A stretch of DNA of 64,000 nt from Oscillospiraceae bacterium (lineage in GTDB: Bacteria; Bacillota; Clostridia; Oscillospirales; Acutalibacteraceae), in the NCBI GenBank assembly GCA_015066105.1, contig SVOY01000001.1, positions 458,127-522,126 on the forward strand. The letters run 5' to 3'. Both the position numbers and the translations under genes were made by a program. Within the stretch, counting starts at the first letter, position 1. Each line of letters starts with the position of its first letter. Positions 37,594 to 58,110 of the stretch are shown here, piece by piece. The notes under the pieces are model-generated. The model was not told where the DNA came from. It did not search any database and saw only the letters and a program-made list of their open reading frames with translations.

Positions 37594-37670
37594 GAGGGTG
37601 TAGCTCAGTTGGTCAGAGTACTTGCTTGACATGCAAGGGGTCGGTGGTTCGAGCCCACTCATCCTCACCA
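37594..37670 (+). tRNA. tRNA-Val (anticodon GAC), CCA encoded
   Basis: Hand-folded. The 7-bp acceptor stem is GAGGGTG/CATCCTC with one G-U. D loop AGCTCAGTTGGTCAGAGT, anticodon loop TTGACAT, T arm GGTTCGAGCC, 3' ACCA. Confidence 0.9.
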
Positions 37671-42464: not shown

Positions 42465-42477
42465 AAAAATAATAATC

Positions 42478-42660
42478 CCGCCGTGCCGTTTGTGATGTGT
42501 ATAACCTGCCTCAGTAGCAGGGTGGTGATAGCGAGACGGGTTCGCGCTCCCTTCGTCCGTTTAGTTGAAGTCCAAACGGGAGGTCTGCAATCCGCCGTCA
42601 AAGCATCTCTCCGTTTTATAACGTGTTGGGTTATAACGATCACAGATGTCGCACACAGCA
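42478..42660 (-). ncRNA. ssrS: candidate 6S-like regulatory RNA
   Basis: Hand fold. The interrupted closing stem pairs GUGC/GCAC, UGUGAU/AUCACA and UAUAACC/GGUUAUA. A large unpaired central bubble (about 28 nt per side) has a small 3'-side hairpin (CCUGC-N7-GCAGG). The apical stem pairs GACGG/CCGUC and CCGUUU/AAACGG. No ORF; a U7 terminator lies downstream. Confidence 0.45.
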
Positions 42661-42672
42661 GGAGTTATTTAA

Positions 42673-53985: not shown

Positions 53986-54016
53986 AGCCAAGGGCCCGTA
54001 GGTATCTTTATTTTTA
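53974..54016. terminator. bidirectional terminator between ylmH and dapA
   Basis: 9-bp stem agataccta / taggtatct flanked by A and T runs. Confidence 0.7.
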
Positions 54017-54919
54017 TAACTGTTTTTCGTTTTTTATCAGATAACCGTACCTGTCAAGCACATCTGAAATAAGGTTAAGGTTGCCCTCACTTGCGTTTGC
54101 AAGGGGCATTCTCATGCGTGCAGTGCACATACCGAGCATATTCATTGCCTCTTTTACGGGTATGGGGTTTACGTCGCAGAAAAGCTTCTGTGCAAGCTCC
54201 ATTACCTCATTCTGCATTTCAAGGCACTCTTTATTTTTGCCCTTAACGCCGTATTCTGCCATTTTGTGCGTAAAGGCGGGAAGAATGTTTGCCAGCACCG
54301 AAACAACGCCCTTACAGCCCACAGCGCAGGCTGAGGAAATCATATCGTCATTGCCGACGTAAAAATCAAGCCTATCCTCACAAAGATAAACCGCCCTTTG
54401 CAATTTGACAATATTTGTGTCAGCCTCCTTGACGCCCCTTATGTTTTCGTGGCACGAAAGCTCCCTGTAGGTTTCGGGTGTGATGTTCATTCCCGTGCGT
54501 GAGGGCACATTATAAACAATAACCGGCTTTTCAAGTCTGTCGGCAAGGTAAAAATAGTGCCTGATAAGGCCCTTTTGCGAGGTTTTGTTGTAGTAGGGCG
54601 TTACCATAAGGTGAGCATCGGCACCGCATTTTTCAGCCTCTTTTGCAACGTCAAGGGTAAAAAAAGTGCTATTACTGCCTGTGCCGCAGATAAGGGGAGC
54701 TCTGCCTCTTATTTTTTCTGCGGCAAAACGGAACAATGATAATCTTTCCTCAACTGAAAGTGTTGAACCCTCACCGGTTGTTCCGCAAACAATAATAGCA
54801 TCAGTATTATTTGCTGTTTGGAATTCTATAAGCTTTTCAAAAACGTCATAATCGATTTTTCCGTCCTTACTGAAGGGCGTTACAAGTGCAACACCGCTGC
54901 CTGTAAAGACACAGCTCAA
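54014..54919 (-). CDS. dapA: 4-hydroxy-tetrahydrodipicolinate synthase
   Basis: 301 aa; TTG start 8 nt after AAGGAGG; GSGVALVTPF, GTTGE and the Schiff-base Lys region. Confidence 0.9.
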   Translation of the reverse strand: MSCVFTGSGVALVTPFSKDGKIDYDVFEKLIEFQTANNTDAIIVCGTTGEGSTLSVEERLSLFRFAAEKIRGRAPLICGTGSNSTFFTLDVAKEAEKCGADAHLMVTPYYNKTSQKGLIRHYFYLADRLEKPVIVYNVPSRTGMNITPETYRELSCHENIRGVKEADTNIVKLQRAVYLCEDRLDFYVGNDDMISSACAVGCKGVVSVLANILPAFTHKMAEYGVKGKNKECLEMQNEVMELAQKLFCDVNPIPVKEAMNMLGMCTARMRMPLANASEGNLNLISDVLDRYGYLIKNEKQL

Positions 54920-54932
54920 AAGAAAACCTCCT

Positions 54933-55209
54933 TAGGGTGACGAGTGTAATCCGAAACTCGTTTTTTTCTGGCGGATTTCCGCCAATTCTTCGTTAAAATA
55001 CTCGCAAATCCGACAGGATTTGCTGTGTTTTGTGCCTTGATTTGCCAAAAATCCGCTTCGAAAAAAATCATTGACCTTAAAGTGCGAATTTTTGCAGGAT
55101 TTTTGGATGATGAGGATGACGAAAGGCTGCCGCCTTTCTAATCCGAATCGCCGAAAAGTCGTGAAAAATCACGCTTTAAGGCGAGATTCAGATTGCACTC
55201 GTCACCCTA
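54933..55209. mobile_element. MITE-like insertion (273 bp plus TA/TA) with 27-bp imperfect terminal inverted repeats
   Basis: The left end at 54935 is GGGTGACGAGTGTAATCCGAAACTCGT. The reverse complement of the right end (55181-55207) is GGGTGACGAGTGCAATCTGAATCTCGC, a 23/27 match with the first 12 bases perfect. TA dinucleotides flank both ends. The interior has at least four perfect hairpins and no ORF. Confidence 0.7.
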
Positions 55210-56295
55210 ATCAATATAACCCTCAGCGCAAAGCAGCTCTGCAAGTAAAACTGCACCGCCTGCCGCGCCTCTGAGTGTGTTGTGTGAAAGGCATACGAAT
55301 TTATAATCGTACTGGGTGTCCTCACGGAGTCTGCCCACGGAAACAGCCATACCGTTTTCAAGTGTACGGTTGAGCTTTGTCTGAGGCATATTATCCTCGG
55401 TGAAGTAATGAAGGAACTTTTTGGGGGCAGAGGGAAGCTCAAGCTCCTGAGCTCTGCCTGCAAAGCTGTTCCAGGCTTCGATAATTTCTTCCTTTGAAGG
55501 CTTTTTGCCGTCCTCAAATCTCATAAACACGGCACCCATGTGACCGTCTGAAACGGGAACTCTGATGCACTGAGCGGTGAAAGCGGGGGATGTGGCCTTT
55601 TTGATTTCGCCGTTTTCCACGCTGCCCCAGATTTTAAGGGGCTCCTGCTCGCTCTTTTCTTCCTCGCCGCCGATGTAGGGGATTACGTTATCAACCATTT
55701 CGGGCCAGCTTTCAAAGGTTTTGCCTGCGCCTGAAATTGCCTGATAGGTGCACACAAGCACCTCCTTAACGCCGTACTTTTTGTCAAGGGGATAGATGGC
55801 GGGAACATAGCTCTGAAGTGAGCAGTTTGACTTAACTGCAACAAAGCCTCTCTTTGTGCCGAGTCTCTTTCTCTGGTCGTCAATAACCCTGATGTGGTCA
55901 GCGTTGATTTCGGGAATTACCATAGGCACGTCGGGAGTGAAGCGGTGTGCACTGTTGTTTGAAATTACGGGGCACTCCTGCTTTGCATAAGCCTCCTCAA
56001 GGGCTCTGATTTCGTCCTTTTTCATATCAACCGCACAGAAAACAAAGTCAACTGCCGCTGCAATTTCCTCAATGTCATCTGTAGCATTTCTGATAATCAT
56101 ATTTTCCATTTTTTCGGGCATTGCATCAGCAATTCTCCATCTTTCGCCAACGGCCTCCTTGTAGGTTTTGCCTGCTGAACGTCCGCTTGCGGCAAGCACG
56201 GTTACATCAAACCAGGGATGATTTGCAAGGATTGTAGCAAATCTCTGGCCGACCATACCCGTTGCACCGATGATACCAACCTTATATTTTTTCAT
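55207..56295 (-). CDS. asd: aspartate-semialdehyde dehydrogenase
   Basis: ORF to 56304; ATG 56295 preferred (SD AGAGGTG). GATGMVGQ NAD motif and the catalytic-Cys motif SNCS. Confidence 0.92.
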   Translation of the reverse strand: MKKYKVGIIGATGMVGQRFATILANHPWFDVTVLAASGRSAGKTYKEAVGERWRIADAMPEKMENMIIRNATDDIEEIAAAVDFVFCAVDMKKDEIRALEEAYAKQECPVISNNSAHRFTPDVPMVIPEINADHIRVIDDQRKRLGTKRGFVAVKSNCSLQSYVPAIYPLDKKYGVKEVLVCTYQAISGAGKTFESWPEMVDNVIPYIGGEEEKSEQEPLKIWGSVENGEIKKATSPAFTAQCIRVPVSDGHMGAVFMRFEDGKKPSKEEIIEAWNSFAGRAQELELPSAPKKFLHYFTEDNMPQTKLNRTLENGMAVSVGRLREDTQYDYKFVCLSHNTLRGAAGGAVLLAELLCAEGYID

Positions 56296-56387: not shown

Positions 56388-56416
56388 ATAATATCACTTA
56401 AACGGATATATGTCAA
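56388..56416 (-). promoter_or_regulatory. asd promoter (TTGACA-17-TATTAT)
   Basis: Hexamers read on the minus strand, about 90 nt upstream of the asd ATG. Confidence 0.6.
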
Positions 56417-57615: not shown

Positions 57616-57876
57616 ATGATTATCAGGTATTCAAAAGACGCGTTGAAATTTTTGGCCAAGCTGGATAAAAAGTCTGTTACAAGAATAAGAGAGGCTATTG
57701 CCGGCTTAACCCTTGTTCCGCCTGTAGGCGATATTAAACTGATGCAAGGCTATAACGATGAGAGAAAGAGACTCAGAGTAGGCTCCTGGCGGATTATTTA
57801 TAAGTACGGTACAGATAATAACATTGAGATACTTTTCATCATTGATATAGGAAACCGCGGAGATATTTATAAATAA
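57616..57876 (+). CDS. RelE/ParE-superfamily type II toxin
   Basis: 86 aa; RLRVGSWRIIY...ILFIIDIGNRGDIY pattern typical of RelE/ParE toxins. Confidence 0.75.
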   Translation: MIIRYSKDALKFLAKLDKKSVTRIREAIAGLTLVPPVGDIKLMQGYNDERKRLRVGSWRIIYKYGTDNNIEILFIIDIGNRGDIYK

Positions 57877-57888
57877 GGAGGAAAGTAT

Positions 57889-58110
57889 ATGTCTGATGTT
57901 GCAATAGATGCTGCAAGGCTTTTGGATATGCTGCCTGAAAGTGATAAACAGTTTGCTTATGAGTTTATAAAAAAACTTGTTCTTGCCTGGGACCCTGATT
58001 TCACAAAGGTTACCTCCGAGGAAGCAAAGCACATTGCTGCAGCAGAGAACAGCGGCTTTGTTGATGAAGCAGATATTGACTGGGATAATCTCAGCTCAAT
58101 AGCTCAGTAA
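57889..58110 (+). CDS. putative cognate antitoxin (acidic, helical, no recognisable DNA-binding fold)
   Basis: 73 aa; SD GGAGGAA; 12 nt downstream of the toxin; strongly acidic. Confidence 0.5.
   Translation: MSDVAIDAARLLDMLPESDKQFAYEFIKKLVLAWDPDFTKVTSEEAKHIAAAENSGFVDEADIDWDNLSSIAQ

What the first reader, a model, noticed from the sequence alone, without database searches (positions are those of the whole stretch)
54933..55209. MITE-like, hairpin-rich 273-bp insertion that splits a compact asd-dapA junction
The termini are inverted repeats. The first 12 bp are perfect (GGGTGACGAGTG / CACTCGTCACCC), and similarity extends to 23/27. TA dinucleotides flank both ends (54933-54934 and 55208-55209). 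Removing the element and one TA restores, on the minus strand, ...GAT TAAGGAGG-N8-TTG. That is an asd TAA stop fused to the dapA Shine-Dalgarno, a typical coupled junction. Today the asd stop (TAG) is built from the TA plus the first G of the element. The interior has no ORF but contains several perfect hairpins: GGCGGA-tt-TCCGCC, GCAAATCC-gaca-GGATTTGC, GAAAGGC-tgcc-GCCTTTC and CGTGA-aaaa-TCACG. The motif AATCC/GGATT recurs about 10 times. A TA duplication is the hallmark of IS630/Tc1-mariner-type transposition. In the asd-dapA transcript the ends would form a 27-bp stem next to the dapA RBS.
Basis: partly seen in the sequence, partly recalled or inferred. Interest (0 to 1): 0.62.

Follow-up and report, generated by a model that had tools for sequence, protein, structure and literature searches.

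The report
Small jumping-DNA element between asd and dapA
A 273-base non-coding mobile element (a MITE) has landed in the TA of the asd stop codon, just ahead of the dapA ribosome-binding site, in an uncultured gut Clostridia bacterium; this is a familiar kind of selfish DNA, and relatives carry exactly the predicted empty site.

Summary

**The element.** Window 54935-55207 is 273 bp. Its terminal inverted repeats are 12/12 perfect and 23/27 overall. A TA flanks each end.

**Empty site.** Two relatives (Asd 94-95% identical) read GAT-TAA-GGAGGTTTTCTT-TTG at the same junction. It turned the asd stop from TAA into TAG (TA plus the element's first G) and left the dapA ribosome-binding site intact.

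**Other copies.** Four more full-length copies, 84-92% identical, plus one truncated and one internally deleted copy, lie at six unrelated loci in four Acutalibacteraceae/Clostridia MAGs. Every intact end is flanked by TA.

**Abundance.** In faecal metagenomes the element's most conserved 45 nt appears in about 45 contig variants. Their summed depth is about 90 times that of the host locus.

**Fold.** It folds as a closing stem plus two roughly 107-nt arms, with 95.6% of pairs kept and 7 pairs showing compensatory changes.

**Strain variant.** One strain with an identical Asd protein carries a 43-bp derivative whose hairpin is weakened by clustered substitutions.

**What was not found.** No Rfam, plasmid, phage or literature match was found, and no autonomous partner. 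Mobilisation by an IS630-type transposase is inferred from the TA duplication only.

**Verdict.** This is a new member of a known kind.

The parts
54933..54934 (.). TA, copy of the duplicated target on the dapA side (the TA of TAAGGAGG on the minus strand)
   Evidence: Sequence. The empty sites in L026 and L027 have a single TA here.
54935..54961 (.). Left terminal inverted repeat, GGGTGACGAGTGTAATCCGAAACTCGT
   Evidence: It is conserved in all copies.
54961..55067 (.). Arm A, a roughly 107-nt imperfect palindrome. It contains GGCGGA-TT-TCCGCC and the tip hairpin.
   Evidence: nhmmer matches positions 29-135 to themselves on the opposite strand.
54991..55032 (.). Most conserved core of the family. 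It is the tip of arm A, GCAAATCC-GACA-GGATTTGC (55004-55023), flanked by an A-tract and a T-tract, and looks like a terminator in both directions.
   Evidence: About 45 contig variants at 88% likeness or more, with summed depth about 1,900 against about 20 for the host locus. Terminator-like on both strands. One CG->UA compensatory pair.
55075..55182 (.). Arm B, a roughly 107-nt imperfect palindrome. It contains GAAAGGC-TGCC-GCCTTTC and CGTGA-AAAA-TCACG.
   Evidence: nhmmer matches positions 143-250 to themselves on the opposite strand. Three pairs show compensatory changes.
55181..55207 (.). Right terminal inverted repeat, ...GCGAGATTCAGATTGCACTCGTCACCC
55208..55209 (.). TA, copy of the duplicated target on the asd side. 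Together with 55207 it forms the present asd stop, TAG, on the minus strand.
   Evidence: Empty sites have TAA.
55207..56295 (-). asd (aspartate-semialdehyde dehydrogenase, 362 aa). Its stop codon was rebuilt by the insertion.
54014..54919 (-). dapA (4-hydroxy-tetrahydrodipicolinate synthase, 301 aa, TTG start). Its SD, GGAGG, lies at 54927-54931, 7 nt upstream of the start.
   Evidence: The TTG start and SD are conserved in relatives.
56388..56416 (-). Near-consensus promoter (TTGACA-17-TGnTATTAT) upstream of asd. It is the only good minus-strand promoter for the asd-dapA pair.
   Evidence: No minus-strand promoter-like site lies inside the element.

Best explanation
**What it is.** The 273-bp segment is one copy of a non-autonomous DNA transposon (a MITE). 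The family lives in uncultured gut and rumen Clostridia (Acutalibacteraceae and relatives).

**How it inserted (shown).**
- It integrated into the TA of ...GAT-TA-AGGAGG..., that is, into the TAA stop codon of asd where that codon abuts the dapA Shine-Dalgarno.
- It duplicated that TA.
- Because the element begins with G, the upstream copy became a TAG stop. The downstream copy restored TAAGGAGG. Both genes therefore stayed intact.

**How it moves (inferred).** It is moved in trans by a DDE transposase that makes 2-nt staggered cuts at TA. An IS630/Tc1-mariner-type enzyme is the most likely candidate, at about 55%. That enzyme would recognise the 27-bp ends and possibly the AATCCG words that recur in the ends and in both arms.

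**Effect on expression (inferred).**
- dapA has no promoter of its own, so it is still read from the asd promoter through the element.
- In that transcript the element folds on itself into a closing stem plus two arms.
- This leaves the SD exposed at the foot of the stem and keeps the asd stop and the dapA start physically close, which is why the insertion is tolerated in an essential operon.
- The long stem is a plausible RNase III substrate, as shown for Correia elements.

The confidence of 0.9 applies to the MITE insertion with TA duplication, not to the identity of the transposase or to the effects on expression.
For: **Empty and filled sites**
- L026 and L027 are empty: GAT TAA GGAGGTTTTCTT TTG. 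The window and L001 are filled: GAT TA[G...C]TA AGGAGG.
- A further relative shows an empty junction in metagenome contigs.

**Dispersed family**
- The family has 5 independent full copies at 84-92% identity, plus 1 truncated and 1 internally deleted copy. They lie at unrelated loci: the 3' end of an aroE/aroK fusion, parA/parB, methyltransferase/hsp33, tspO/GDPD, radC/ABC-2, and a surface-protein/membrane-protein spacer.
- TA flanks every intact end, and the flanks diverge immediately outside it.
- Two copies each occur in two MAGs.

**Abundance**
- There are many variants in faecal metagenomes, and contigs break inside the element.

**Non-coding and unmatched**
- The element has no coding capacity and no Rfam family.

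**Fold**
- Fold z-scores are -9.9 and -12.5.
- 95.6% of cells are paired, against 33-52% for slid controls. Seven pairs show compensatory changes.

**Stop codons and expression**
- The stop is rebuilt as TA+G at three sites (window, L006, L009). A TGA in GGGTGA closes parA in L007.
- The only good promoter is upstream of asd.
- The SD is not sequestered in the model.
- Metatranscriptome contigs identical to this locus span 54918-55158.
Against: - No autonomous element with these ends was found in the species-representative genomes (exact 20-mer only), in metagenome or viral contigs, or in plasmids or phages.
- Only one copy lies in the 64-kb window, and none was seen in about 120 kb of relatives' flanks.
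- The interior, especially the tip of arm A, is better conserved across the wider family than the ends. This is the reverse of the usual MITE pattern and hints at a constraint other than transposase binding at the ends.
- The RNA evidence is two contigs at depth about 2 with no strand information, and could be DNA carry-over.
Confidence: 0.9

Rival explanations
1. The element is a MITE, but its conserved three-armed fold and hyper-conserved arm-A tip serve a function. It would then be a mobile cis-acting RNA or DNA module, such as a bidirectional terminator or insulator, an RNase III processing or stabilising site, or a protein-binding palindrome, and hosts would keep it for that reason.
For: - The tip of arm A is much more abundant and better conserved than the ends in metagenomes.
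- That tip has the form of a terminator on both strands.
- Pairing is maintained by compensatory changes in all helices.
- Four of five copies fold 6-20 kcal/mol better on one strand.
- The insertion is retained in 23 of 23 contigs that carry the identical Asd protein.
- The short derivative shows a non-random cluster of stem-weakening substitutions.
Against: - Near relatives do well without it at this junction.
- Palindromy can be kept by the needs of transposition or by templated repair within hairpins.
- The compensatory events are few, and two of the five sequences come from one MAG.
- A working terminator between asd and dapA would be harmful, yet the copy sits inside an operon.
- No function was tested.
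Confidence: 0.15
2. The element is a MITE mobilised by a transposase that is not of the IS630 family. A member of the IS5 family (IS427/ISL2 groups) or the IS30 family could also produce 2-3-bp duplications.
For: - The only evidence for IS630 is the TA duplication.
- No IS630-type partner was found.
- From general knowledge of IS families, IS30 and some IS5 subgroups also give 2-3-bp duplications.
Against: An invariant TA at all seven sites is the signature of IS630/Tc1-mariner. The other families are not known for strict TA targeting.
Confidence: 0.2
3. The segment is a conserved regulatory leader or riboswitch for dapA (for example, lysine- or DAP-responsive) and is not mobile DNA.
For: It is highly structured and sits directly upstream of a lysine-pathway gene.
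Against: - It is absent from the same junction in relatives with 90-96% identical Asd.
- The same sequence lies at unrelated loci beside unrelated genes.
- There is no Rfam match.
Confidence: 0.02

Closest known systems
Correia elements (CREE/NEMIS) of Neisseria
   Same: - Non-coding, with terminal inverted repeats of about 24-27 bp and a TA duplication.
- Exist as long forms and internally deleted short forms.
- Often lie next to or inside operons.
- Transcripts fold into long stems that are proposed RNase III substrates (Delihas review, PMC2229807).
   Different: - Different phylum.
- Correia elements are 107-155 bp and fold as a single stem-loop. This element is 273 bp and folds as a closing stem plus two arms.
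- No IHF site or outward promoter was identified here.
- Sequence relatedness was not tested directly and is not expected.
RUP (repeat unit of pneumococcus), attributed to IS630-Spn1
   Same: A Firmicutes MITE that inserts at TA and has stop codons in its reading frames. It is thought to be moved in trans by an IS630-family transposase (PMC2229807).
   Different: - RUP is 107 bp with 9-bp contiguous inverted repeats, and a matching IS is known for it.
- Here no parent IS is known.
- Here the interior is more conserved than the ends.
IS630/Tc1-mariner transposons (e.g. ISY100)
   Same: Strict TA target and TA duplication, and terminal inverted repeats of a few tens of bp (PMC2170065, abstract listed).
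   Different: This element encodes no transposase. Similarity of its ends to any IS630 member was not established.

Membership tests
Bacterial MITE (non-autonomous TIR transposon) | Terminal inverted repeats | tested here: met
   12/12 perfect and 23/27 overall. The ends are conserved in all copies.
Bacterial MITE (non-autonomous TIR transposon) | Target-site duplication shown by comparing filled and empty sites | tested here: met
   L026 and L027 are empty (GAT TAAGGAGG). The window is filled (GAT TA[...]TA AGGAGG).
Bacterial MITE (non-autonomous TIR transposon) | Multiple dispersed copies at unrelated loci | tested here: met
   Seven loci in five genomes, plus about 45 contig variants per metagenome.
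Bacterial MITE (non-autonomous TIR transposon) | Small size and no coding capacity | tested here: met
   273 bp. The internal ORFs have no credible Pfam match or homologues and are not conserved between copies.
IS630/Tc1-mariner-derived MITE | TA target and 2-bp TA duplication | tested here: met
   TA flanks every intact end of all seven copies, and the empty site has a single TA.
IS630/Tc1-mariner-derived MITE | Ends match those of an autonomous IS630-family element (DDE_3 transposase) in the same or a related genome | tested here: inconclusive
   An exact 18-20-mer of the end found only MITE copies or chance hits in genome, metagenome and viral contigs. No protein-based search for the transposase was possible in the host genomes.
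Known RNA family (riboswitch, leader or sRNA in Rfam 15) | Covariance-model match at or near the gathering score | tested here: not met
   The best hits have E >= 0.2 and lie far below their thresholds. The whole-window gathering scan gives only a tRNA and 6S RNA elsewhere.
Intrinsic terminator | GC-rich hairpin directly followed by a U-tract, and termination in vivo | tested here: inconclusive
   The 8-bp, 4-GC hairpin at 55004-55023 passes a lax scan on both strands. It is weak, lies inside a longer arm, and sits within an essential operon. No stranded RNA data were available.

The most novel reading that the evidence does not exclude
The family may be more than a selfish repeat. Two readings remain open.

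1. **A functional interior.** A roughly 45-nt hairpin at the tip of one arm is the invariant, massively repeated part, while the terminal repeats drift. The unit under selection could therefore be a structured RNA or DNA module, such as a bidirectional terminator or insulator, a processing site, or a protein-binding palindrome. The TA-transposon chassis would merely carry it around.
2. **Stop-codon targeting.** The G-first, C-last ends may be adapted to land in the TA of TAA/TAG stop codons and rebuild a stop. That would allow copies to settle harmlessly at gene ends and inside operons.
Probability: 0.15. Interest if true: 0.6.

Novelty: new member of a known kind. Interest (0 to 1): 0.3.

Why it matters
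This is a clean case of a MITE insertion inside an essential biosynthetic operon that damages neither gene. The stop codon and the ribosome-binding site are both rebuilt from the duplicated TA. The case comes with an exact empty site, a full-length form and a decayed 43-bp form in natural populations.

It adds an undescribed MITE family to the little-studied mobilome of uncultured gut and rumen Clostridia. It also explains why assemblies of these organisms break at such sites.

Practically, annotators should not read the 273 bp as a leader or riboswitch, and should not call the 51-aa ORF inside it.

The open questions are which transposase moves the family and why the interior is better conserved than the ends. 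Both can be tested.

Tried and rejected
I could not count copies or search for a transposase in the window's own genome.

**Searches that found nothing useful**
- Rfam at a permissive E-value on the locus, and at gathering score on the whole window: nothing relevant.
- A metagenome-contig scan with the 18-mer end gave 11 loci, all chance matches. None resembles the element by blastn or nhmmer, and L015 lies in coding sequence.
- Viral contigs gave no hit with the end and one chance hit with the core.
- The full element found nothing in plasmids or phages, and the end found only one chance hit in plasmids.
- Searching the 5.8-billion-protein set with the 51-aa internal ORF, to fish out other copies, found only the ORF itself.
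- Exact-protein look-ups at the parA/parB, hsp33 and GDPD loci found no polymorphic empty sites there. All strains on record carry the element.
- A literature search for the terminal 12-mer, and for MITEs in these taxa, found nothing relevant.

**Readings rejected**
- A dapA leader or riboswitch, because empty sites exist and copies are dispersed.
- An IS200/IS605-type hairpin element, because this element has inverted ends and a duplication.
- A 3-bp duplication (TTA or TAA), because the left and right flanks do not agree with one.

**Left open**
- The orientation bias (5 of 6 copies point the same way relative to the upstream gene) and the excess of insertions into stop codons (3 of 7) rest on too few cases to be significant.

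Full report
**1. The observation**

- The element runs from 54935 to 55207 (273 bp). It starts GGGTGACGAGTG and ends CACTCGTCACCC.
- The ends are complementary at 12/12 and 23/27 positions. With the flanking TTA/TAA included, the repeat finder reports 29-nt arms at 90%.
- The 12-mer occurs nowhere else in the 64-kb window, even with one mismatch allowed. The chance expectation is 0.07.
- TA lies at 54933-54934 and at 55208-55209.

The neighbouring genes are on the minus strand.
- asd (55207-56295, ATG start) ends in TAG. That stop is made of the TA plus the element's terminal base.
- The other TA begins TAAGGAGG. It is followed by 7 nt (not 8) and the TTG start of dapA (54014-54919).
- Both gene identities are confirmed by Pfam.

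The interior matches the description, with one small correction.
- The four hairpins are present as described.
- AATCC/GGATT occurs 7 times exactly, plus two AGATT variants. The background predicts 0.47, and none of 10,000 shuffles reaches 7.
- These words come in palindromic pairs, so they represent about four independent motifs: one in the ends, two in arm A and one in arm B.

**2. The empty site**

I looked up contigs that encode close Asd homologues and read their asd-dapA junctions.

| Locus | Asd identity | Junction |
|---|---|---|
| L026 | 95% | GGTTATATTGAT TAA GGAGGTTTTCTT TTG AGCTGTGTC |
| L027 (GCA_045612205.1) | 94% | same architecture as L026 |
| L021-L025 and L028 | 96% and 90% | short spacers of 29 and 20 nt, no trace of the element |

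- The L026 junction is what remains when the element and one TA are removed from the window.
- A metagenome contig of yet another relative joins 54909 to 55211 through ...CTAAGGAGG....
- The insertion therefore duplicated exactly TA, changed the asd stop from TAA to TAG, and left the dapA SD and start untouched.

**3. A dispersed family**

A scan of one genome per species for the 20-mer end returned six loci in four Acutalibacteraceae/Clostridia MAGs.
- Four are full-length copies, 84-92% identical to the window's copy.
- One is truncated (L006) and one is internally deleted to about 111 bp (L009).
- Every intact end is followed by TA, and similarity stops at the TA.

The contexts are unrelated to one another:
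- the 3' end of an aroE-aroK fusion gene (L004)
- a spacer between a surface-protein gene and a membrane-protein gene (L005)
- methyltransferase/hsp33 (L006)
- parA/parB (L007)
- radC/ABC-2 permease, convergent (L008)
- tspO/GDPD (L009)

Two MAGs carry two copies each.

Laying the contigs of faecal and bovine-gut metagenomes on the locus shows two things.
- Assemblies break inside the element.
- The tip of arm A (54991-55032) is present in about 45 contig variants at 88% likeness or more. Their summed depth is about 1,900, against about 20 for the host's own contig. The left end reaches only about 5 times the host depth at 85% likeness or more.
- The sequence beside the core in these variants keeps the same motifs (CGGATTTCCGC before it, CCAAAAATCC after it). 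They are therefore diverged members of one larger family.

Earlier notes of this scan describe what seem to be the same family in other genomes. I treat those notes as leads only.

**4. Anatomy**

- nhmmer with a profile of the five full copies matches positions 29-135 and 143-250 to themselves on the opposite strand. The element is thus two palindromic arms of about 107 nt between the inverted ends.
- Both strands fold into a closing stem plus two arms: -116 kcal/mol (z = -9.9) on the mRNA strand and -128 kcal/mol (z = -12.5) on the other.
- On the five independent copies the consensus structure has 109 pairs.
  - 95.6% of cells are paired, against 33-52% when partners are slid.
  - 7 pairs show compensatory changes, spread over all helices.
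  - 12 cells have changes on both sides, against 5.0 +/- 1.7 in shuffles.
- Two of the five sequences come from one MAG, so the number of independent events is small.
- Four of five copies fold 6-20 kcal/mol better in the orientation that is antisense to asd-dapA here. This is suggestive and no more.
- The arm-A tip hairpin (GCAAATCC-GACA-GGATTTGC) lies between an A-tract and a T-tract and passes a lax terminator scan on both strands.

**5. Behaviour at gene ends**

- The terminal TAGGGTGA carries stops in two of three frames.
- At three of seven sites (window, L006, L009) the upstream gene's stop is TA + G.
- In L007, parA runs two codons into the element to the TGA.
- In L004 the third frame is used, and the protein gains 12 element-encoded residues.
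- An earlier first-reader note reports another copy that begins at the G of a TAG stop.
- Five of six copies with a co-directional upstream gene have the same orientation.
- Both trends rest on too few cases to be significant.

**6. A decayed copy in a sister strain**

Of 23 contigs that encode the identical Asd protein, one (L002) differs from the rest. Its spacer is 57 nt, of which 43 bp is the derivative: TAA-GTTGACGATTTCAATCTGAATCTCG|GATTACACTCGTCACCC-TAAGGAGG.
- It keeps the locus-specific variants of the window's asd-side end (CAATCTGAATCTCG). It is therefore an in-place internal deletion of about 230 bp, at a TCG microhomology.
- It also has 5 substitutions within 17 nt of that end and the stop codon, while asd and dapA differ at 0.4% and 0.9%. 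The expectation is about 0.1 substitutions, giving a Poisson P of about 1e-7.
- These changes raise the free energy of the remaining hairpin from -37 kcal/mol (deletion only, computed) to -18 kcal/mol.
- This fits selection against a strong, bare hairpin between the two genes. A single complex repair event is an alternative explanation. The deleted L009 copy has a similar GGG->AGT change at one end, which I cannot explain.

**7. Consequences for expression**

- The only good minus-strand promoter is upstream of asd (TTGACA-17-TATTAT with a TG, 11/12 matches).
- No promoter-like site lies in the element on that strand. dapA must therefore be read through the element.
- In partition-function folds, the SD is at least as exposed in the filled form (P unpaired 0.35-0.88) as in the empty form (0.13-0.47). 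This is because the element pairs with itself.
- A bovine-gut metatranscriptome holds two contigs identical to this locus, covering 54918-55158. They include the dapA start and SD. Their depth is about 2 and they carry no strand information. This is weak support that the junction is transcribed.
- RNase III processing of the 27-bp stem is proposed by analogy with Correia elements (PMC2229807). It was not tested.

**8. Comparison and verdict**

- The element meets every defining feature of a bacterial MITE that I could test.
- It works like Correia elements and RUP. It is not a member of either family: the host, size and fold differ, and there is no evidence of sequence relatedness.
- The IS630/Tc1-mariner attribution rests on the strict TA duplication.
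- No partner was found with exact-word scans of the ends or in plasmids or phages.
- No paper in the searchable library mentions the terminal sequence in this context, or MITEs in these taxa.
- It is a new member of a known kind. The insertion itself is ordinary but well documented.
- The unusual point, which deserves more copies and an experiment, is that the interior fold, and above all the arm-A tip, is better conserved than the ends.

Noticed in passing
window 57616-58110 (+): Two small genes lie between queA and tgt. One encodes an 86-aa protein with a weak ParE/RelE-toxin Pfam hit, and the other a 73-aa partner. The window and L001 have them. Sister strain L002 lacks them, and its queA and tgt are 4 nt apart. 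This looks like a toxin-antitoxin cassette that is polymorphic between strains.
   Followed up: partly
L002 4087-4103 (asd-side end of the 43-bp derivative): Five substitutions fall within 17 nt, while the flanking genes differ by less than 1%. All of them weaken the residual hairpin. The deleted copy L009 shows a similar GGG->AGT change at one end. It is unexplained: selection against a bare hairpin, or one complex repair event.
   Followed up: partly
L021-L025, asd-dapA spacer: In the lineage with 96% identical Asd, the junction reads TAA-AATATAAACATATT-TAAGGAGG. That is 17 extra nt between a TAA stop and the same TAAGGAGG. It may be a remnant of an older event at the same TA.
   Followed up: no
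L004 7721-7758: An aroE-aroK fusion ORF reads 12 codons into an element copy (…SRVTSIIQTRLKA*). The insertion has therefore replaced the protein's C-terminus.
   Followed up: no
L031/L032/L034 compared with L030, parA 3' end: A one-base difference in an A-run just before the element (AAAAGG or AAAAAGG) shifts the parA frame. The protein then ends either at the element's TGA (258 aa) or 5 codons further in (263 aa).
   Followed up: no
window 42471-42667 (-) and 37594-37667 (+): 6S RNA (51 bits) and a tRNA are the only Rfam gathering-level matches in the window.
   Followed up: no
metagenome runs X1, X2, X3 and X9, loose ends behind 54995: Some family members share the left part up to GGCGGATTTCCGCCAA and then switch to a different arm tip (CCTTGACAATCCGTCAAGG, with AATCCG in the loop). 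The family therefore seems modular or mosaic.
   Followed up: no
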